DNA of 64,000 nucleotides, from assembly GCA_963841435.1 (NCBI GenBank), contig CAWJCS010000002.1, positions 672,001 to 736,000 on the forward strand. The letters run 5' to 3'. The stretch comes from an uncultured delta proteobacterium (GTDB taxonomy: Bacteria > Myxococcota_A > Polyangia > Polyangiales > Polyangiaceae). A model generated the notes under the pieces. That model worked only from the letters and a program-made list of their open reading frames with translations. It did not search any database and was not told the DNA's origin. The first letter of the stretch is position 1; the number at the start of each line of letters is the position of its first letter. The position numbers were made by a program, and so were the translations under genes. Below, piece by piece: positions 55,334-63,732 of this stretch.

Positions 55334-57196
55334 CTACTCTTGCTCGTCGAACCAGGCGTCAGTCGCCAAGATCCGAGTGCTCGTGTGCTGCGGCACGAAC
55401 GCGACGCCGAACGACAATGGCCCCGACGCGACTTTGACGGCTCCGGTCGGCTCCTCGCCGGCCGGCTTCTCCACTTTGAGGCGAACTTCCACCACGCCGC
55501 TCTTGGCCCGAAAGTGGTCGACGGTGACCCCTCCCGCCAGGGTCGCGAGCTTGCCGCGAAAGCTGGTTCCTGGCAGCGGCAGGAACGCCTGAACCCAGGC
55601 GGGAACACCGATGTCCTTGCCGAAGGCCACGAACAGCGGCTCGATGTCCCGAAGGAGCCCGCCGAGCTCGAGGTCCCAGTGTGGCGAATCGCCCTTCACG
55701 TAGCCGCCGCTCACGACCTCGAGGTGCGACCACCAGCCGTAGGTCACGTCCTGGCCTTGGGCGACCATGAGGTCCGAGACATCGAGGCGCGTCTTGTCGA
55801 ACGCGATGCCTTCGCGTGTTTCCGCCAGCACGCCGCGGGCGTCCAGCTTCCCTGCGAAGCGCCGCTTGCCCACGTGGGCCTCGAGCTCGGCCCTCATCTG
55901 GAGCTCCGCGCGCAGATCGGGCTCCGTGAGAGTGCCGCTCACGTGCCCGCCGAGCGTGAGCGTCCCCTCGTCGAGCGCCACGGGGCTGCCTTTCGGCAGG
56001 TAGGCACGAACGACCGCCGCGTCGCCCGAGACGGGAGACAACGTCGCATCGTAAGCGAGACGGGGAGCAGGCTTCGACAGGTCAATGACGGCGCCCGACC
56101 GGATATCGGCCACGAGCTTTCCGCCGGACAAGCGCGCGCCCTCGCCGCTCGGTGAGAGCGAAAGTTCGCTCGTCGTCAGGTGCACGACACCGTGACTCGC
56201 GGAGTCAACCGCGCCCGTCATCACGAGCGATGTGCGAAGCAACGTGTGCGCCGCCTGCGCTTCGAGCTTGAGACTCGAGATCTCGAGCGCCGTACCCGGC
56301 CGTAGAATTCCGCGCTCGAAGCCGAAAGCGAGCTTGAAACGGCCCGCGCCTCCCTCGAGCTTTACGCCCGACGATGCCAGAAAGTAGTTGGCGAACTCGG
56401 CGTTCACGACGTTGGCTCGAACTTCGAGGGAGCCACTGAAAAACGACAAGATGGCCATGCCCTCGGGCTCGACGGGATTGAAATGAGGCGTCGAGCACTC
56501 GGCTCGCCCCGACATAGCGGTGAGCGCGGACTTGCCGGCAACGGCAAGCTCGCCATTTTGGAATTGGACCGCCGCGCCTGGGCCGACGCGCAACTCGAGC
56601 CGGGGTCGAAACAGAAAGGCACCCACGACGTGCGCTTGCCCGCTGTAGCGAGTCTCGTCGATCCAGAGCTCCTTGACCGTGGCGTCGATGTCGCTCACCT
56701 CGAGCGAAGTGTCCGTGTAGTTCTCGCGCGTGGGTGGCGGACTGGGGACGTAGGCGTCCGTGAGAGGTGGTTTGGGGTGGCCCGGGATGTCGGGCAGCGC
56801 TCGCACCTTGGCGGCGTCAACTGCCCAGGGCTGCAACCGGCGGACTCCACGGACCGATGCCCCGGAGCCCCGAAGCCTGGTGATCTCAATCGTGCGCTTG
56901 CTGACTGCGGACCATAGATCGAGGGTCAGCCCCACTTCGTCGATGCTGACCACGAACTGGATGTTCGGATCCTCGCCGACGATCACGAGATGGTGGAAGT
57001 TCAGGCGCGTCGGCCAGGGTGCCCAAGCAAAGCCGTAGCTCATGGCTGCGCTGTCCGTGTTGAGGAAACGCGGCACGACGCGTAGCCAGAGCGCGAGGTT
57101 CGTGATGAGCGGAATCGCAAAGAAGGCGCCGCTCGCGACCACGACCGCGCGCCTCGCCCAGCGCGGCGCGTCGAACCAGCGTTTCCACCCGCGCAT
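55334..57196 (-). CDS. Membrane-anchored beta-rich protein (AsmA-like candidate)
   Basis: N-terminal TM then ~600 aa of alternating beta-strands, no catalytic motifs; start 57196 or 57244. Confidence 0.6.
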   Translation of the reverse strand: MRGWKRWFDAPRWARRAVVVASGAFFAIPLITNLALWLRVVPRFLNTDSAAMSYGFAWAPWPTRLNFHHLVIVGEDPNIQFVVSIDEVGLTLDLWSAVSKRTIEITRLRGSGASVRGVRRLQPWAVDAAKVRALPDIPGHPKPPLTDAYVPSPPPTRENYTDTSLEVSDIDATVKELWIDETRYSGQAHVVGAFLFRPRLELRVGPGAAVQFQNGELAVAGKSALTAMSGRAECSTPHFNPVEPEGMAILSFFSGSLEVRANVVNAEFANYFLASSGVKLEGGAGRFKLAFGFERGILRPGTALEISSLKLEAQAAHTLLRTSLVMTGAVDSASHGVVHLTTSELSLSPSGEGARLSGGKLVADIRSGAVIDLSKPAPRLAYDATLSPVSGDAAVVRAYLPKGSPVALDEGTLTLGGHVSGTLTEPDLRAELQMRAELEAHVGKRRFAGKLDARGVLAETREGIAFDKTRLDVSDLMVAQGQDVTYGWWSHLEVVSGGYVKGDSPHWDLELGGLLRDIEPLFVAFGKDIGVPAWVQAFLPLPGTSFRGKLATLAGGVTVDHFRAKSGVVEVRLKVEKPAGEEPTGAVKVASGPLSFGVAFVPQHTSTRILATDAWFDEQE

Positions 57197-57270
57197 CGCG
57201 AGAAGACGCAGCCATGAGGGAGTCCGTCGGTTGGGCGAATGCAAGCTTTTGGCTCGAGCTTTCGTCCGGT

Positions 57271-57951
57271 CTAGTGATACGTCGCGGAGAGCGCCAACTC
57301 CGGAACGATGAAGAGCGTGTGCTCGGTGCCGTCACGGGCGGCGCGCGCGGCAGCGCCGAATGCGACCCGGCCGATGAATCCCAGGCTCAACTCGTTCGCG
57401 ATGAACCATTCGTAGCCGCTGCCAGTCGCCAGGGCCGCCCCGAACGTTTCGGGCTTGATCGGATTGCCCTTCACGTCGCTTTCGAGCTGCACGACGAGCT
57501 CGACGGCGACCAAACTGTGAAAGCCGAGCTTCGGGTACGGGTACCAGTCGAGGAATGGGCCGACGCGAAGCTGCGTCACTTTGACGCTGTCATCGTCCGG
57601 CGTGACGGTCTTGCCGTTCTCGATGAAGACGGGGTCGATGCGTACCGTCCAGACGGTGCCCCCGAGCACCAGACCGCGCGCCGGCGTTCCGCCGAGCGAG
57701 AGCGCCGCACTCTGCCCCAGGCCGCGGATGCCGGTGCGACGGAGCGCATTCGAGCCGGAAACGTGCGCCCAATAGAAGGCGAGGCCCGGCTCCGAGCGGG
57801 CGAAGAACCCGTCATGAGTCTTTGCCCCCGGGTCGGCTTCGCACGGGGATTCATGCGTCGCTTTGCGGGCCACGGGCGAGCTCGGGTCGGCGGCCGCGAG
57901 TCCCGCGTGAAAGAGAACCGCGGCGACGATCGCGAGGGCGCGGGACGCCAT
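57271..57951 (-). CDS. Small outer-membrane beta-barrel protein
   Basis: Signal peptide; THDGFFAR; GPFLDWYP; GYEWFI; C-terminal SATYH; TGATG coupling to upstream gene. Confidence 0.75.
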   Translation of the reverse strand: MASRALAIVAAVLFHAGLAAADPSSPVARKATHESPCEADPGAKTHDGFFARSEPGLAFYWAHVSGSNALRRTGIRGLGQSAALSLGGTPARGLVLGGTVWTVRIDPVFIENGKTVTPDDDSVKVTQLRVGPFLDWYPYPKLGFHSLVAVELVVQLESDVKGNPIKPETFGAALATGSGYEWFIANELSLGFIGRVAFGAAARAARDGTEHTLFIVPELALSATYH

Positions 57952-58259
57952 CACACGATCAGGATGATGATGATGATGCCGAGGAGAATGATCACGGCCA
58001 CGGTCGCGCTGATGACGATGACATCGCCACCTCTGAAGTTCTTTGCGTTCCGCGACAACGCCTCGCGCATCGCATAGCGCTGGTCCTCCGACGACGCCCC
58101 GGCAGCCCCCGTGCGCGGGATGCGGATGACGCGCACCTGCGGGCTCCCGGTTCCGGCCGCGACGGGCGAGGTGCTCGTCACCCGAACGCTTTCGGCTCCC
58201 GCGGGCGCCGAGAGCGCCAGCACTAGAGCAACCATCAGTGCGAGGCTCGTCCTTTTCAT
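57951..58259 (-). CDS. Exported double-glycine precursor with hydrophobic C-terminal peptide
   Basis: MKRT + hydrophobic + AGA signal; YAMREA..NFRGG|DVIVISATVAVIILLGIIIIILIV; adjacent to C39 peptidase. Confidence 0.75.
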   Translation of the reverse strand: MKRTSLALMVALVLALSAPAGAESVRVTSTSPVAAGTGSPQVRVIRIPRTGAAGASSEDQRYAMREALSRNAKNFRGGDVIVISATVAVIILLGIIIIILIV

Positions 58260-58270
58260 ACTGCAACACG

Positions 58271-58287
58271 AAGCAAGCAACGTGCCG
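58271..58287 (-). promoter_or_regulatory. Sigma54 -24/-12 promoter (near-leaderless transcript)
   Basis: CGGCACG-TTGC-TTGCT vs consensus TGGCACG-N4-TTGCW; GC lies 13 nt before ATG 58259; no SD. Confidence 0.7.
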
Positions 58288-58302
58288 GAGCGCGTGGGGT
58301 GC

Positions 58303-58950
58303 TCACCGTTCGGCGACTCGAGCATCGACCGGCGGCGCGAAGGTCACGATCGTGACGCCTTTACTGCGTTCCCACTCCTCGGAAAACCCCTTCAGATCGT
58401 CCACCTGCCAGCCGCTGCCGGGATCGAGCAAGAGCACGCGCCCTCGTTTCGGCTGGTAACCCACGACGACCTCGTAGTGGGCCAGCGCCTTCTCGGCCTC
58501 GAACGCCTTGCCGAGCCCCACGATGACGGGACGCCCGCGCTCGAGCTCGTGAACGATGTCCGCGATGTTGCCGAAGAAGACGTACGAGTGCAGTCCCCGT
58601 TTGCGGGCATAGCCGACCATGTCGCCGGCGAGCAACCGAGCGTCGGCGCCACCAATCGCCGCCTCGACCGACCCCGGCGTTGCCGGGTGGCCCCAGAAAC
58701 GCAGCACCGCGGCGAGCGCGGCGGCGCCGCAATCAGCGCTTTTTTCCTGCCGGACCAGCGGGAACGCGGGGACCATCAGCCAGCCACCTTCGCGTGCGAC
58801 GACGGCAGGCTGCGCGCTCACGGCGGTGCCGGCGTACGAGGCGCACCCAGTGCTGCCGAAAAGAAGAACAACGGCGAACGCGCCCCGCCTGACGGCGACC
58901 AGCCACGAGGCGCGCTCGGCGCCATCAGATTGATGGGTCTGTCTCGTCAC
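58303..58950 (-). CDS. Stand-alone C39-like cysteine peptidase, lipoprotein
   Basis: PLVRQEKSADCGAAAL (Q-x5-C), AHYEVVVGY (His), LLDP (Asp); lipobox STGC; no ABC domain. Confidence 0.87.
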   Translation of the reverse strand: MTRQTHQSDGAERASWLVAVRRGAFAVVLLFGSTGCASYAGTAVSAQPAVVAREGGWLMVPAFPLVRQEKSADCGAAALAAVLRFWGHPATPGSVEAAIGGADARLLAGDMVGYARKRGLHSYVFFGNIADIVHELERGRPVIVGLGKAFEAEKALAHYEVVVGYQPKRGRVLLLDPGSGWQVDDLKGFSEEWERSKGVTIVTFAPPVDARVAER

Positions 58951-58963
58951 TTTGATGGTCTTT

Positions 58964-59119
58964 TCACACGACGCGACGGCCCATGATGACGCGGACCAAA
59001 ACCGCAACAACCGCCAGGACGAGCAGCAGGTGAATGAGGCCTCCCGACGCGACGTGCAGCCCGAAGCCGAGCATCCACATCGCGACGAGAACGACCGCGA
59101 TAATCCAGAGTAGGTTCAA
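58964..59119 (-). CDS. lmo0937-like small membrane protein
   Basis: LWIIAVVLVAMWMLGF...GGLIHLLLVLAVV..LVRVI.GRR; TTG start with AAGGA SD. Confidence 0.85.
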   Translation of the reverse strand: MNLLWIIAVVLVAMWMLGFGLHVASGGLIHLLLVLAVVAVLVRVIMGRRVV

Positions 59120-59296: not shown

Positions 59297-60310
59297 ATGC
59301 TGATCGATGAGGCAAGTGCCAACGGTTCTGTCGCGGCTCAGGGGGCGGCGGCCTGGATCGATGCGGCAGGTCTGACGAACGTCGGACGGGAGCGACCCCG
59401 AAACGAGGACGCCTACCTGATCGCGACCTTGCAGCGGTCCATGGTCGTGCACGATGCGAGCCCAGCCGCCGCACGTGGCTGGTTCGCGGGAAGCTTGGCC
59501 GGCACCTTGCTCGTCGTGGCCGATGGCATGGGTGGACAGGGCGGGGGCGACGTGGCGAGCCGCGTGGCCGTCAATACCGTTGCGGGCTACCTGCTCAACG
59601 TCATGTCGTGGCCGACGGTGGTGCCCGCGGCTTCCGAGGTCCATGACCGCGCGTCGCTCCCTGGTTTGCGCGATCAACTTTCCGCGGCGCTCGTCATGAG
59701 CAGCTCGACCGTCAAGGCGGCCGGGGCTCAGACCGGAATCCCGCAGATGGGCACCACGTTGACGATGGCGTTGGTGTTGTGGCCCGCGCTCTACGTCGCG
59801 CACGTGGGAGACACTCGCTGCTACCTCTTCCGCTCGGGGAAGCTGACACGCCTGACCACCGACCACACGGTGGCGGAAAGGATGACCGCAGCTGCAGCCG
59901 AGCCGATCGAGCCGGAGTCCCAGCTGCACCACATCCTGTGGAACTCGCTGGGTGGCAGCTCCGAGCTTCCCAAGCCCGAAATGGTGAAGCTCGATCTCGA
60001 GCTCGGCGACACCTTGCTATTGTGCTCGGACGGGCTCACCAAACATGTTGGTGAGGAGCAGATCAGCGCCTACCTCCGCTCGGACGAACCGAACCCGGCG
60101 CGCTGCGCGAAGCTCGTGGAGCAGGCCAATGCCGGTGGCGGTTCGGACAACGTGACCGTGCTGATTGCGAGCGCGCGGCCAATGCGCACGCCCCCCGGTC
60201 GCGCTCGCCGGCAACGTCGCGCCCCCGGGCCCGCTCTGAGCGGGAGGGCTCATTCCCGATCGCGTAGGCGACTCCGGCAGCGCGCGGGCTCTCGTCACAG
60301 CCGAACTTGA
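59297..60310 (+). CDS. PP2C-family Ser/Thr protein phosphatase
   Basis: RNED, VADGMGG, MGTT, HVGDTR, LCSDGL, GGSDNVT; Arg-rich tail overlaps convergent gene. Confidence 0.92.
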   Translation: MLIDEASANGSVAAQGAAAWIDAAGLTNVGRERPRNEDAYLIATLQRSMVVHDASPAAARGWFAGSLAGTLLVVADGMGGQGGGDVASRVAVNTVAGYLLNVMSWPTVVPAASEVHDRASLPGLRDQLSAALVMSSSTVKAAGAQTGIPQMGTTLTMALVLWPALYVAHVGDTRCYLFRSGKLTRLTTDHTVAERMTAAAAEPIEPESQLHHILWNSLGGSSELPKPEMVKLDLELGDTLLLCSDGLTKHVGEEQISAYLRSDEPNPARCAKLVEQANAGGGSDNVTVLIASARPMRTPPGRARRQRRAPGPALSGRAHSRSRRRLRQRAGSRHSRT

Positions 60311-61953: not shown

Positions 61954-63540
61954 CTACTGGGCTCGGTCTTCGGCAGAGCTCGCACAGAGCGACAATGAGG
62001 CTTTGAGCTCGTCGTCGAGCGGGGCGTTGAAGAGCTCGAAGTGTCGGTTGTAGCCCTGATAGCCGATGAGCACACCGAAGACGATGCTGACCACGCCCAG
62101 CGTGGCGAAAAGCGCGCTCGTGAAGCGGGGTGTGTACCGACCGAGCCGGTGAGATCGTAGCGCGAAGCCTCCGAGCAACGCGAGGAGCACGATGCCGAAA
62201 GAGACGTCGTTCAGGTAACGCATCGTCGCCAGGTAGAGCCCGAGCGCGACGACGCCGCTCAGGCTGGCGAGTGCGGCGAAGCAAACGAGGCACCACAGGT
62301 AGGCGCGGGTGCGACGCGCGTCGAGACCGAGCGGTCGCGGCACGAGCAGGAACGCGAACGGCAGGAGCCAGCTCGACGGCACCGCGCGGAGCCAGCCGAT
62401 CACGGGCTCTTCCGCCATGTAGTCGGAGGGAAGCCTGAAGCCGTTCGGGAAGGCGCCAGCGCCCTGGTGCCAGGCCTGGAACACGTAAGGAAACTCACAG
62501 GACGTTTCGAAGCTTCGCAGCGCATACGAGTAGAGGTTCGGCAAGAGGTACCGCGGCGACAGGCGAAAGAGCGGGTAACCCGAGAGCTGCACGCCCGTGC
62601 CGAACTCGAAATAGCTGTCGAAGCGCGCCTTGTTGTAAAGGAGCAGCGACAACCCGACGACGGCGAGCGGCCCGCCGAGCACGAGCACGTTCACGAGCGA
62701 GCGGCGTGCTCGCCCGCCGTTCCAGCCCTCGCAAACGGCCGTCGCTACGACGAAAAGCGCGATGGCCGGGGCGACACTGACGCGCGAGCCCAGCGCGAGC
62801 GACCACGCCACTCCGGCCAAAAACAGCCGAACGCGCCGGGCCCGCGGCGTTCCGGCGTCCCAGACGGCGTCGAATGCCGCGAGCAGCCCGACCAAGAGCC
62901 ACGCCTGCGCCGCCATGATGGCCGCGTGGTACGTGCTGCCGGTCGTGACGGCGTGAAGCGCGGGGTTCGCGAAGGCGAGGACGAGCACCGCGAGGACGAC
63001 CAGCCAGCGGGGCACCGGGCTGAACAGGCGCGTCGCCATTCGTTCCACGATCAGCGCGCCGGCCCAGAACGCGACACACGACGAGACGACGCAAACGTAC
63101 TGATCGCCGAGTAGGTATTCGATGCCCAGGAGCTCTTTGACCAGGGACAGCAGGAGGGCGGGCACGGGCCCCCAGTAAATGTAGTAGCGCCCCGCGTAGT
63201 AGCTCGAGTCGAGGGCCCAGCTGCCGTCGTCGCCGGAAAGCGGATCGGGCAGTGGCCCGGTGGCAATGTAGAGCTTGCCGTGCCGAAAGGCTTCCGCGAG
63301 TAGGTCGTGGTACGCGCCGTAGCTCGGCAGGTCGATATGGCCGGCTCCCGCGAAAACTCGGTAGATCCACCAAACGCACGGAATGAGCACGAAGAGCCAG
63401 AGTCGCGAGCGTTCCCGCGCCAGGCGCGCGGCGAGCACACTTCCGGAGGGCGGCTCGAGTCGAGTGACGACGCCGAGGGCGCGATTGAGCGCGCGGCGCA
63501 AGGCGGATGGCGCGCGCGGGGCGCTTGCGGCGCTCGGCAT
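61954..63540 (-). CDS. Polytopic membrane protein, GT-C-like glycosyltransferase candidate
   Basis: LAEAFRHGKL..DSSYYAGRYYIYWGPVPALLL; LGSR; YNKARFDS.FEFG; TMRY; ~11 hydrophobic segments. Confidence 0.7.
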   Translation of the reverse strand: MPSAASAPRAPSALRRALNRALGVVTRLEPPSGSVLAARLARERSRLWLFVLIPCVWWIYRVFAGAGHIDLPSYGAYHDLLAEAFRHGKLYIATGPLPDPLSGDDGSWALDSSYYAGRYYIYWGPVPALLLSLVKELLGIEYLLGDQYVCVVSSCVAFWAGALIVERMATRLFSPVPRWLVVLAVLVLAFANPALHAVTTGSTYHAAIMAAQAWLLVGLLAAFDAVWDAGTPRARRVRLFLAGVAWSLALGSRVSVAPAIALFVVATAVCEGWNGGRARRSLVNVLVLGGPLAVVGLSLLLYNKARFDSYFEFGTGVQLSGYPLFRLSPRYLLPNLYSYALRSFETSCEFPYVFQAWHQGAGAFPNGFRLPSDYMAEEPVIGWLRAVPSSWLLPFAFLLVPRPLGLDARRTRAYLWCLVCFAALASLSGVVALGLYLATMRYLNDVSFGIVLLALLGGFALRSHRLGRYTPRFTSALFATLGVVSIVFGVLIGYQGYNRHFELFNAPLDDELKASLSLCASSAEDRAQ

Positions 63541-63732
63541 GGACTCCACGCTCGTCGTACCACGGTCTCGCCTGTTCGCGCGTGGTTGCCATTCGCGAAA
63601 TGTGCACGACCAACGAGAAGAAAACGCTCGCGCCGTGCCTGCCCCACGTTCGCTCGCGCTACTACAATGGCTGACTAGACGGTGGAGACCCTCGGGAAAC
63701 AACGGGCGCTTGCGTCACCGGCGTCGCACGCG

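What the first reader, a model, noticed from the sequence alone, without database searches (positions are those of the whole stretch)
55334..59119. Candidate periplasmic double-glycine peptide-processing system: C39 lipoprotein, Sec precursor, OM barrel and AsmA-like protein
Seen: five co-oriented genes - lmo0937-like membrane peptide, a lipoprotein C39 peptidase with intact Q/C/H/D residues, a 102-aa protein with a Sec signal ending FRGG|DVIVISATVAVIILLGIIIIILIV, a translationally coupled (TGATG) beta-barrel and a TM-anchored beta-rich protein. Known: C39 domains cut after Gly-Gly, normally in the cytoplasm as part of ABC exporters; the uncharacterised Pseudomonas PA2778/PA2779 pair has a similar layout. 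Inference: cleavage here happens outside the cytoplasm, with no ABC exporter or modifying enzymes nearby, releasing either a membrane peptide or a soluble ectodomain that the barrel and AsmA-like protein may traffic.
Basis: partly seen in the sequence, partly recalled or inferred. Interest (0 to 1): 0.85.

Follow-up and report, generated by a model that had tools for sequence, protein, structure and literature searches.

The report
Periplasmic C39 peptidase with tethered substrate
A lipid-anchored cysteine peptidase of the bacteriocin-leader-cutting type sits outside the cytoplasm beside (in relatives, fused to) a small membrane-anchored protein that looks like its own dedicated Gly-Gly substrate, a pairing kept in two bacterial phyla and, as far as my searches show, not described.

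Summary
The five co-oriented genes are real and as described.

- **Pairing:** the tail element lies next to, or is fused to, the peptidase in 25 of 27 related loci (Polyangiaceae and Planctomycetota).
- **Fusion:** 31 of 120 peptidase homologues carry the tail as a C-terminal extension. All 17 of 17 longer proteins that bear the tail are C39 fusions.
- **Motif:** GG in 113 of 120 small proteins, AG in the other 7.
- **Complex model:** ipSAE 0.86, best control 0.00. GG sits at the catalytic Cys74/His158, and Phe(-4) and Ala(-7) lie in the groove.
- **Barrel:** a modelled 8-stranded OmpW/OprG-like fold, present in 12 of 27 loci, so facultative.
- **Peripheral genes:** the AsmA-like (bridge-lipid-transfer fold) protein occurs in 3 of 27 loci and lmo0937 in 1 of 27.
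- **PA2778/PA2779:** family membership is not met.

Most likely the peptidase cuts just outside the inner membrane and leaves a 23-25-residue membrane stub. Cleavage and purpose are untested. Periplasmic C39 enzymes are known (FapD), so this is a new variant with a predicted cognate substrate.

The parts
58303..58950 (-). C39-family cysteine peptidase, predicted lipoprotein (215 aa from GTG 58950; alternative TTG 59010). Lipobox Cys36; catalytic Gln68, Cys74, His158, Asp176.
   Evidence: Pfam PF13529 and PF03412 above cut-off. Invariant residues in 29 of 29 homologues. Profile matches the solved ComA, PCAT1 and LahT150 peptidase domains at E 9e-8 to 4.5e-4. 241 homologues at E<=1e-3.
57951..58259 (-). 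102-aa partner or predicted substrate: Sec signal (residues 1-22), variable linker (23-57), leader-like segment (58-78), GG (77-78), terminal TM helix (79-102), no cytoplasmic residues.
   Evidence: A family of 261 proteins, listed ones all unnamed or 'hypothetical protein' with no Pfam. No NCBIfam family. Adjacent or fused to C39 in 25 of 27 loci.
58026..58088 (-). Conserved leader-like segment E58-G78 (EDQRYAMREALSRNAKNFRGG). The GG codons are 58031-58026, the predicted scissile site being after Gly78.
   Evidence: Motif tally: Y(-17) 112 of 113, A(-7) 111 of 113, Y/F(-4) 110 of 113, GG 113 of 120 plus AG 7 of 120. Modelled contacts: F75 and A72 in the groove, G77 against residue 157, interface including C74.
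57954..58025 (-). C-terminal 24 residues D79-V102: the P' residues DVIVIS plus the TM helix. This is the membrane stub predicted to remain after cleavage.
   Evidence: +1 D in 96 of 113, +4 V in 107 of 113, +5 I in 105 of 113. Length after GG is 23, 24 or 25 residues in 112 of 113.
57271..57951 (-). 226-aa predicted 8-stranded outer-membrane beta-barrel, with its start overlapping the partner's stop (TGATG). A facultative accessory gene.
   Evidence: AlphaFold2 pLDDT 87.5, pTM 0.79, 8 long strands. Foldseek matches OprG, OmpW, OmpA-TM and NspA at E 2e-5 to 2.5e-4, TM about 0.5. Atlas lead OMP_b-brl. Present in 12 of 27 loci.
55334..57244 (-). 636-aa protein with an N-terminal helix anchor and a long beta-groove (bridge-like lipid-transfer, AsmA-like fold). 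Probably not part of the module.
   Evidence: AlphaFold2 pLDDT 90.0. Foldseek top hit LPD-3 9cap_A, E 2.8e-7, prob 1.00, TM 0.22. Atlas TamB/AsmA leads. Pfam DUF748, YdbH-like or LmeA in 4 of 34 homologues and none in the window protein. Adjacent in only 3 of 27 loci.
58964..59119 (-). 51-aa lmo0937/DUF5670 membrane protein. Adjacency is probably incidental.
   Evidence: Seen near the module in only 1 of 27 loci (L001, downstream of the barrel).

Best explanation
This is a self-contained, Sec-exported double-glycine processing pair.

The C39 peptidase is exported and lipid-anchored at Cys36, about 20 residues before its catalytic domain. Its partner is exported through its own signal peptide and stays in the inner membrane by its terminal TM helix. 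About 55 residues remain in the periplasm.

The last 21 periplasmic residues ([DE]xxRYAAREAxSPxAKx[YF][RK][GA]G) act like a bacteriocin double-glycine leader. A helix lays its -4 aromatic and -7 Ala into the peptidase groove and presents Gly-Gly to Cys74/His158. The enzyme then cuts after Gly78, directly at the membrane surface. This severs the periplasmic part from a 23-25-residue membrane stub (DVIVISA...).

In the fused relatives the same reaction would be a self-cleavage that frees the lipoprotein enzyme from its second, C-terminal anchor.

**Shown here (in silico only):** the family and catalytic residues, the export signals, the obligate pairing, the fusion, the motif conservation and the modelled docking.

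**Inferred:** that hydrolysis occurs, and its purpose. My preferred reading is the production of an N-out/C-in oriented membrane micropeptide and/or release of the peptidase from the inner membrane. The OmpW-like barrel would be an optional outer-membrane partner.
For: 1. **Enzyme.** Pfam C39 models are above cut-off. The profile matches genuine double-glycine peptidases ComA, PCAT1 and LahT150. Q68, C74, H158 and D176 are invariant in 29 of 29 homologues.
2. **Location.** G35-C36 is invariant in 29 of 29, and a lipobox-type Cys occurs in 117 of 120. No ABC domain is present, and listed homologues are 157-317 aa.
3. **Pairing.** The tail is next to or fused with C39 in 25 of 27 loci. Three arrangements occur: downstream gene, upstream gene and fusion. 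Three Planctomycetota loci are included.
4. **Fusion.** 31 of 120 C39 homologues carry the tail. On the tree they form one clade (1 change, SH-aLRT 88).
5. **Exclusivity.** 17 of 17 longer proteins with the tail are C39 fusions. There is no second tail-bearing ORF in the 64-kb window.
6. **Motif.** GG in 113 of 120 and AG in 7 of 120. Positions -21 to +8 are conserved, while the linker and signal peptide are not.
7. **Complex model.** ipSAE 0.86, 0.86 and 0.87 against a best of 3 controls of 0.00. That mark was reached by 116 of 157 solved complexes and 2 of 215 mismatched pairs. Runs agree in at least 91% of contacts, and partner pLDDT is at least 77. The interface includes C74-G75 and 153-159. 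G77 touches residue 157. F75(-4) and A72(-7) give the best-defined contacts.
8. **Precedents.** FapD is an active periplasmic C39 (PMC5557850, passages). A C39 toxin domain self-processes after Gly in its own linker (bioRxiv 10.64898/2026.05.07.723447, passages).
Against: - No experiment shows cleavage.
- Solved C39-leader complexes exist (6mpz and 6v9z turned up). The high complex score may therefore be likeness recalled by the model, and my own alignments were used, so the calibration holds only roughly.
- One locus (L008) has R-G-D-D instead of R-G-G-D. The 7 AG variants put Ala at P2, whereas canonical sites vary at P1 (GG/GA/GS; the canonical rule is from PMC5557850 and from recall).
- The conserved stretch (-21 to +8) coincides with the modelled interface. 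It shows binding just as well as cleavage.
- The released periplasmic piece has no conserved cargo. The TM beyond +8 is generic L/I/V, so no product with an obvious function emerges.
- In Planctomycetota the TM is followed by cytoplasmic tails. The 'micropeptide' reading therefore does not generalise.
- If the lipoprotein is sorted to the outer membrane, it could not reach a site at the inner-membrane surface.
Confidence: 0.55

Rival explanations
1. Uncleaved pseudo-substrate anchor or inhibitor. The conserved segment occupies the active-site groove permanently. It tethers the peptidase to the inner membrane and keeps it shut until a signal displaces it. The real substrates lie elsewhere.
For: Conservation from -21 to +8 coincides exactly with the modelled interface. 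The tail occurs only with C39 (17 of 17). No conserved cargo lies on either side of GG. Fusion as a permanent C-terminal anchor is maintained across a diversified clade (31 clusters). The oxidising periplasm can keep a C39 Cys inactive (bioRxiv 10.64898/2026.05.07.723447, passages).
Against: The near-invariant small residues at P2 and P1 (GG or AG in 120 of 120 listed) and their placement at Cys74/His158 are what a scissile site needs. A mere plug would tolerate more variation. All catalytic residues are kept.
Confidence: 0.25
2. One reading: a five-gene pathway in which the barrel and the AsmA-like protein traffic the cleavage product across or into the outer membrane.
For: The barrel's start overlaps the partner's stop (TGATG), and a barrel follows the pair in 12 of 27 loci. 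The barrel model resembles OmpW/OprG; by recall, these carry small hydrophobic molecules. The 636-aa protein has a lipid-bridge fold.
Against: 15 of 27 loci lack the barrel, including two of the three fused loci. The AsmA-like gene is adjacent in 3 of 27 and belongs to a large independent family (1029 representatives). lmo0937 is adjacent in 1 of 27. Genes after the barrel elsewhere are unrelated.
Confidence: 0.12
3. Sortase-like transfer. The thioester formed at Gly78 is resolved by a nucleophile other than water. The periplasmic part (in fusions, the enzyme itself) would then be attached to an envelope component. The GG+TM would act as a C-terminal sorting signal, as in the LPXTG, PEP-CTERM and GlyGly-CTERM systems.
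For: The layout is formally the same as a sorting signal: signal peptide, motif, terminal TM helix. Papain-fold enzymes pass through an acyl-enzyme intermediate (established chemistry).
Against: No cargo proteins were found: every longer tail-bearing protein is the peptidase itself (17 of 17, a search the tool calls weak evidence). There is no basic cluster after the TM in Myxococcota. No GlyGly-CTERM or other sorting-signal model was among the NCBIfam hits.
Confidence: 0.06
4. Chance neighbours: unrelated genes that happen to lie together, with GG being a coincidence.
For: None beyond the shortness and low complexity of the small protein.
Against: 25 of 27 loci, a fusion, three gene orders, two phyla and a conserved motif.
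Confidence: 0.02

Closest known systems
FapD of the Pseudomonas Fap amyloid system (periplasmic C39 peptidase working with the FapF outer-membrane barrel)
   Same: A Sec-exported, catalytically required C39 peptidase that acts in the periplasm and is encoded with an outer-membrane beta-barrel. Its substrate is undefined (PMC5557850, passages read).
   Different: No Fap amyloid subunits are present here. FapF is described there as a trimeric 12-stranded barrel, whereas this one models as 8-stranded. FapD is not described there as a lipoprotein. Here a dedicated partner with a conserved GG site is identifiable. No FapD-type model was among the NCBIfam hits.
C39 peptidase domains of AMS/PCAT ABC exporters (ComA, PCAT1, LahT)
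   Same: The same fold family and catalytic residues. The predicted recognition logic is also the same: a helix with key residues at -4 and -7, then Gly-Gly (the canonical rule is from recall and from PMC5557850).
   Different: Here the enzyme stands alone, has a lipobox and is exported. The 'leader' is not N-terminal: it lies after a Sec signal and linker (or after the enzyme itself) and before a terminal TM helix. No ABC transporter lies within 51.5-64 kb of the window.
PA2778 family cysteine peptidase (NCBIfam NF033920) with its PA2779 neighbour
   Same: It is the best-scoring NCBIfam model for the peptidase (E 6e-14).
   Different: The score is 52.1 bits against a cut-off of 150, and only profile positions 10-147 of 255 are matched. 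No PA2779-type model was hit by any of 18 small proteins at E<=10. I could not obtain a PA2779 sequence, so its layout was not compared. The literature search found no functional study (listing only).
C-terminal sorting signals with dedicated processing enzymes (GlyGly-CTERM/rhombosortase, LPXTG/sortase, PEP-CTERM/exosortase)
   Same: A signal peptide at the N-terminus, a short conserved motif and a terminal TM helix, encoded beside the putative processing enzyme. The description of the known systems is from recall.
   Different: The enzyme class differs (papain-fold C39). There is no basic tail in Myxococcota, no cargo domain, and the signal is found only on the enzyme's own partner or on the enzyme itself.
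C39 toxin domain of StbD (CdiA-like) that self-processes in its linker
   Same: A C39 domain cutting after Gly in a segment tethered to itself. This parallels what the fused homologues would do (bioRxiv 10.64898/2026.05.07.723447, passages read).
   Different: That domain is a delivered antibacterial toxin acting on GyrB/ParE in the cytoplasm. Nothing here suggests a toxin.

Membership tests
Peptidase C39 / C39_2 (Pfam PF03412, PF13529) | Family HMM score above the curated cut-off | tested here: met
   PF13529 44.4 bits (cut-off 24); PF03412 37.1 bits (cut-off 22).
Peptidase C39 / C39_2 (Pfam PF03412, PF13529) | Catalytic Cys and His, with the oxyanion Gln and the orienting Asp | tested here: met
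   Q68, C74, H158 and D176 are invariant in 29 of 29 homologues. Cys and His align with ComA and PCAT1.
Peptidase C39 / C39_2 (Pfam PF03412, PF13529) | Hydrolysis after a Gly-Gly-type site | not testable with these tools
   There is only a model with G77-G78 at the catalytic dyad and GG/AG conservation.
AMS/PCAT-type C39 (classical context) | N-terminal domain of an ABC exporter, cytoplasmic | tested here: not met
   215 aa with a lipobox and no ABC domain. Listed homologues are 157-317 aa.
PA2778 family (NF033920) | HMM score of at least 150 bits | tested here: not met
   52.1 bits, covering profile positions 10-147 of 255.
PA2778 family (NF033920) | Neighbour of the PA2779 family | tested here: inconclusive
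   No PA2779-type model was among the hits of 18 small proteins at E<=10. That such a model is in the library is my recollection, and no PA2779 sequence was available to compare.
Fap system (FapD/FapF) | fap operon partners (amyloid subunits FapB/C/E, chaperone FapA, 12-stranded trimeric FapF) | tested here: not met
   No Fap models were hit by the five proteins. FapA-type models were touched by one small protein each, at E 0.02-0.03, taken as chance. The barrel models as 8-stranded.
Double-glycine leader peptide | Gly-Gly preceded by a helix with conserved residues at -4 and -7 | tested here: met
   Y/F(-4) in 110 of 113; A(-7) in 111 of 113; GG in 113 of 120 and AG in 7 of 120. The -4 and -7 residues give the best-defined contacts.
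Double-glycine leader peptide | Located at the N-terminus of a cytoplasmic precursor, followed by a soluble core peptide | tested here: not met
   It lies after a Sec signal and linker, or after the enzyme itself, and is followed only by a TM helix.
GlyGly-CTERM / rhombosortase | GG motif, TM helix and a basic cluster at the C-terminus; rhombosortase partner | tested here: not met
   Proteins end at the TM with no basic residues. No GlyGly-CTERM model appeared among the NCBIfam hits. The partner is a C39. No search for rhomboid genes was made.
lmo0937 family (NF033488) / DUF5670 | HMM score above cut-off | tested here: met
   48.2 bits (cut-off 30) and PF18919 42.7 bits (cut-off 23.5).
Small 8-stranded outer-membrane barrels (OmpW/OprG, OmpA-TM, OmpX/Ail, NspA) | Signal peptide and an 8-stranded antiparallel barrel | tested here: met
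   AlphaFold2 pLDDT 87.5 with 8 long strands. 26 PDB matches at E<=1e-3; those listed are outer-membrane barrels. This is a model, not a structure.
Small 8-stranded outer-membrane barrels (OmpW/OprG, OmpA-TM, OmpX/Ail, NspA) | Sequence membership (Pfam OMP_b-brl, OmpW and similar) | tested here: not met
   No such Pfam hit at E<=1. There is only an Atlas lead: OMP_b-brl on 11-86% of members of look-alike clusters.
AsmA-like / bridge-like lipid-transfer proteins | N-terminal membrane anchor followed by a long repeating beta-groove | tested here: met
   AlphaFold2 pLDDT 90.0, helices 10-53 followed by about 30 strands. Foldseek LPD-3 E 2.8e-7 and prob 1.00 but TM only 0.22; Vps13 fragment prob 0.82.
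AsmA-like / bridge-like lipid-transfer proteins | Sequence membership (Pfam AsmA, TamB, DUF748, YdbH-like) | tested here: inconclusive
   The window protein has 0 families. Among 34 homologues: DUF748 in 2, YdbH-like in 1, LmeA in 1. Atlas shows a TamB-named cluster at 0.98.

The most novel reading that the evidence does not exclude
A previously unrecognised envelope processing system. An exported C39 'anchor-clipping' peptidase recognises a leader-like signal placed immediately before a terminal TM helix. It would be used either to manufacture a topologically defined 23-25-residue membrane micropeptide, or to release the enzyme or partner from the inner membrane in a controlled way. That would be a fifth kind of C-terminal-signal processing beside sortase, exosortase, rhombosortase and PorU. 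It is conserved from Polyangiaceae to Planctomycetota and would give the first defined substrate for any periplasmic C39 enzyme.
Probability: 0.25. Interest if true: 0.8.

Novelty: new variant of a known kind. Interest (0 to 1): 0.62.

Why it matters
C39 peptidases are textbook cytoplasmic parts of bacteriocin and quorum-peptide exporters. The few exported ones (FapD; by database name also FilB and PA2778) have no defined substrate.

Here the genomes point to the substrate: a partner that is always adjacent, is sometimes fused, and is modelled with its Gly-Gly in the active site. That makes the specificity and role of periplasmic C39 enzymes directly testable with two small genes and two point mutants.

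If cleavage is real, it also defines a new sequence signal ([YF][RK][GA]G plus a terminal TM helix) that could be used to find further substrates. It would also give a compact tool for shedding or releasing membrane-tethered proteins in the periplasm.

Tried and rejected
- failed on a one-base frame slip in my coordinates. I corrected it.
- **Fusion tree:** a first FastTree run with a too-strict fusion regex gave 4 changes. Three fused proteins had been mislabelled. With corrected labels and IQ-TREE the fused forms are one clade, so I do not claim repeated fusion.
- **Lipobox count:** my first lipobox regex undercounted (73 of 120). It was replaced by the count.
- **Downstream genes:** I suspected that the 841-863-aa genes after the barrel in L001, L010 and L012 were AsmA-like. 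Pfam shows PBP1A and LigD.
- **636-aa profile against PDB sequences:** nothing relevant, only one hit at E 0.21.
- **Promoter/terminator scan:** 0 promoter-like sites and 5 terminator-like sites, against 2.8 +/- 2.0 expected, all inside coding sequence. Uninformative.
- **Literature:** searches for PA2778/PA2779, for C39 with lipoprotein, periplasmic and double-glycine, for 'C39 peptidase' with periplasm, 'Sec signal' and substrate, for C39 in myxobacteria and for FapD cleavage turned up no description of this pair. The FapD target appears to be still undefined; for the post-2017 papers I saw listings only.
- No PA2779, FapD or FilB sequence was at hand for direct comparison. No second complex job was available for the barrel with either fragment, or for the fused form.

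Full report
**1. Observation**

The interval 55334-59119 holds five co-oriented genes on the - strand (translations; DNA).

- **lmo0937/DUF5670 gene, 59119..58964 (51 aa):** PF18919 E 5.7e-11. NF033488 scores 48.2 bits against a cut-off of 30.
- **C39 gene, 58950 (GTG)..58303:** an alternative TTG start at 59010 would overlap lmo0937.
- **102-aa gene, 58259..57951.**
- **226-aa gene, 57951..57271:** its ATG shares one base with the preceding TGA, giving TGATG.
- **636-aa gene, 57244..55334.**

Downstream on the same strand lie an SNF2-family helicase and sucC. Upstream and divergent lie a PP2C phosphatase, an AI-2E-family transporter and a 582-aa membrane protein with no Pfam match. No ABC exporter or peptide-modifying enzyme lies within 51.5-64 kb; I did not annotate the rest of the window.

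**2. The peptidase**

It passes both Pfam C39 models (PF13529 44.4 bits, PF03412 37.1 bits). A profile of 29 homologues matches the solved double-glycine peptidase domains of ComA (3k8u, E 8.8e-8), PCAT1 (4ry2, 9.7e-8) and LahT150 (6mpz, 4.5e-4). Gln68, Cys74, His158 and Asp176 are invariant in 29 of 29.

The G35-C36 pair at the end of an N-terminal hydrophobic stretch is equally invariant. A [GAS]C[ASG]xY motif is present in 117 of 120 listed homologues. Two of the three exceptions are 157-aa gene calls that start at an internal Met, including the database's own call for this window's gene. The enzyme is therefore a stand-alone exported lipoprotein, not a domain of an ABC exporter.

Its best NCBIfam model is the PA2778 family. 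The score is only 52.1 bits against a cut-off of 150, over positions 10-147 of a 255-position profile. It is not a member.

**3. The small protein and its link to the peptidase**

The alignment of peptidase homologues gave the key result. The roughly 280-290-aa forms carry, as a C-terminal extension, the same tail that ends the window's 102-aa protein...RYAAREAxSPxAKKYRGGDYIVISASALAVILLVVLIILLV, then the stop. Counted over the 120 listed homologues, 31 are fused in this way (28 plus 3 found). On an IQ-TREE tree of the peptidase domain they form one clade (1 change, SH-aLRT 88). An earlier FastTree count of 4 changes rested on mislabelled rows.

A scan of one genome per species returned 33 loci. 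Of these, 27 (L001-L027) encode a family-level relative. In 25 of the 27 the tail element is fused to, or lies directly beside, the peptidase:

- **Fused:** L001, L005, L006.
- **Separate downstream gene with its own signal peptide:** L002-L004, L007-L015, L020, L021, L027.
- **Upstream gene:** L016-L019, L022, L023, L026 (two tandem copies in L026).

The two misses are L024, where the peptidase is cut by the contig end, and L025, a 2.6-kb contig with a frame-shifted peptidase. L020, L023 and L026 are Planctomycetota. Most of the rest are Polyangiaceae or Polyangiales MAGs.

The small-protein family has 261 members at E<=1e-3. The 120 listed are all unnamed or 'hypothetical protein' and carry no Pfam domain. 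No meaningful NCBIfam hit appeared for any of 18 members at E<=10. When longer proteins were searched for the tail, all 17 of 17 found were C39 fusions. The tool warns that this search is weak evidence of absence. The 64-kb window has no second tail-bearing ORF.

**4. The motif**

Over 120 small proteins the site is GG in 113 and AG in 7. L008 has R-G-D-D. Other positions, each counted out of 113:

| Position | Residue | Count |
|---|---|---|
| -18 | R | 103 |
| -17 | Y | 112 |
| -16 | A | 109 |
| -14 | R | 108 |
| -10 | S | 101 |
| -9 | P | 101 |
| -7 | A | 111 |
| -4 | Y or F | 110 |
| -3 | R or K | 111 |
| +1 | D | 96 |
| +4 | V | 107 |
| +5 | I | 105 |

The signal peptide and the roughly 35-45-residue linker are not conserved. 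In 112 of 113 the protein ends 23-25 residues after GG, with no cytoplasmic residue. The Planctomycetota versions keep RYAxREAxxPxxxxF[KR]GG and a TM helix but add cytoplasmic tails. L020 adds a Gly-rich stretch and CxxCxGxG repeats.

So the constant features are a leader-like helix, two small residues and a following TM helix. The spacing of the conserved -4 and -7 positions before GG matches the rule for double-glycine leaders. The canonical rule is from recall, and 'GG, sometimes GA' is from PMC5557850.

**5. Complex model**

I modelled the peptidase (residues 37-215, with alignment A1) against the partner (residues 52-90, with alignment A2).

- **Score:** ipSAE 0.86, 0.86 and 0.87, against 0.00 for the best of three controls.
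- **Calibration:** that mark was reached by 116 of 157 solved complexes and 2 of 215 mismatched pairs.
- **Consistency:** the runs share at least 91% of contacts, and partner pLDDT is at least 77.
- **Interface:** it contains C74-G75 and residues 153-159 (His158) of the enzyme and residues 58-85 of the partner. The best-defined contacts are F75(-4) and A72(-7). G77 touches residue 157.

The model supports binding but does not show it. Solved C39-leader complexes exist, so the pass may partly reflect likeness. My own alignments were used, so the calibration holds only roughly.

**6. The barrel**

With 13 sequences, AlphaFold2 gives pLDDT 87.5 and pTM 0.79, with eight long strands. Foldseek finds OprG (2x27, E 1.9e-5, TM 0.49), OmpW, the OmpA TM domain, NspA and Ail/OmpX. 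The Atlas points the same way. No Pfam model is hit.

A barrel follows the pair in 12 of 27 loci: L001-L004, L007, L008, L010-L013, L015, L027. It is absent from two of the three fused loci and from all Planctomycetota loci. It is a frequent but dispensable companion.

**7. The 636-aa protein**

AlphaFold2 (34 sequences) gives pLDDT 90.0, with N-terminal helices and then a long run of strands. The only Foldseek hit at E<=1e-3 is the bridge-like lipid-transfer protein LPD-3 (9cap_A, E 2.8e-7, prob 1.00, TM 0.22). A Vps13 fragment appears at prob 0.82. The Atlas shows TamB- and AsmA-labelled look-alike clusters. Four of 34 homologues touch DUF748, YdbH-like or LmeA, and the window protein itself touches none.

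'AsmA-like' is therefore right at the level of fold. However, the gene is adjacent in only 3 of 27 loci (L003, L004, L007). It belongs to a large independent family of 1029 representatives. Genes in that position elsewhere are PBP1A, LigD, FIST, a desaturase and M48 peptidases. lmo0937 is near the pair only in L001.

**8. Mechanism**

Shown by comparison and modelling:
- An exported, catalytically intact C39 lipoprotein.
- An obligate partner or extension whose conserved 29 residues fit the enzyme's groove, with two small residues at the catalytic dyad.
- A TM helix immediately after those residues.

Inferred: the enzyme cuts after Gly78 at the outer face of the inner membrane. That leaves a 24-residue stub (D79-V102) and frees a 56-residue periplasmic piece. 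In fusions it frees the enzyme itself. A C39 domain that self-processes after Gly in its own linker is documented (bioRxiv 10.64898/2026.05.07.723447, passages).

The purpose is open. Because neither the linker nor the deep TM is conserved, the data fit two readings almost equally well: a real scissile site (my choice, 0.55) and a permanently bound pseudo-substrate anchor (0.25). A geometric constraint applies. The enzyme's tether is only about 20 residues, so it must act while in the same membrane as the partner, that is, before any sorting to the outer membrane.

**9. Comparison and novelty**

- **Known:** periplasmic C39 activity. FapD is Sec-exported, needs its Cys, works with the FapF barrel, and had no defined target in 2017 (PMC5557850, passages). 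Later papers I saw as listings only.
- **Different here:** a distinct lipoprotein family, an identifiable dedicated partner, a leader-like signal in front of a terminal TM helix, and a fusion form.

My searches and the Pfam and NCBIfam libraries contain no description of the pair. This does not exclude a description in subscription journals. I rate it a new variant of a known kind.

**10. What stayed unchecked**

- Contexts of the metagenomic homologues (collection closed).
- PA2779, FapD and FilB sequences.
- Any interaction of the barrel with either fragment.
- Supplements of the bioRxiv preprint (closed).
- All biochemistry.

Noticed in passing
window 57271-57951 (-); alignment A3: The barrel family has invariant acidic/polar motifs, PDDDSVK and ESDxKG. 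By the model's strand order they fall on the extracellular loops. There is also an invariant HDGF at the first strand and a single invariant Cys about 10 residues before it. Nearly all members end in T-Y-H. Conserved external loops are unusual for small barrels and hint at a binding or catalytic site.
   Followed up: partly
L020:10624-11157 (+); L023:13-1191 (+); L026:1068-1789 (+): The Planctomycetota versions of the partner keep the RYAxREA...F[KR]GG segment and the TM helix but add cytoplasmic tails. L020 has a Gly-rich stretch with two CxxCxGxG motifs (DnaJ-type zinc-finger-like). L026 has two tandem copies upstream of the peptidase.
   Followed up: partly
L021:9839-10600 (+): The peptidase matches only query residues 20-117, and its reading frame runs on into a complete partner gene with its own Met and signal peptide. 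This is a deletion, a pseudogene or an assembly artefact.
   Followed up: no
window 59297-60310 (+); L022:10561-11382 (-); L011:4057-4815 (-): A PP2C-type phosphatase homologous to the window's lies next to the peptidase in the window (divergent) and in L022 (convergent), and 5 kb away in L011. This may be chance in PP2C-rich genomes.
   Followed up: no
L017:11234-12469, L018:11182-12429, L019:11128-12363 (+): In the three loci where the partner gene precedes the peptidase, an M48 (Ste24/HtpX-type) membrane metallopeptidase follows within about 0.7 kb.
   Followed up: no
window 58303-58776 (-), protein P0006: The public gene call for this window's peptidase is 157 aa, starting at an internal Met (MVPAFPLV...). 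It therefore lacks the conserved lipobox region that 117 of 120 homologues have, and is probably a mis-called start.
   Followed up: yes
window 61954-63702 (-): A 582-aa multi-pass membrane protein has no Pfam match at E<=1e-3.
   Followed up: no
L008:2995-3294 (+): This is the only partner among the loci with R-G-D-D in place of R-G-G-D, a single-base difference. It may be a real variant or a sequencing error.
   Followed up: no
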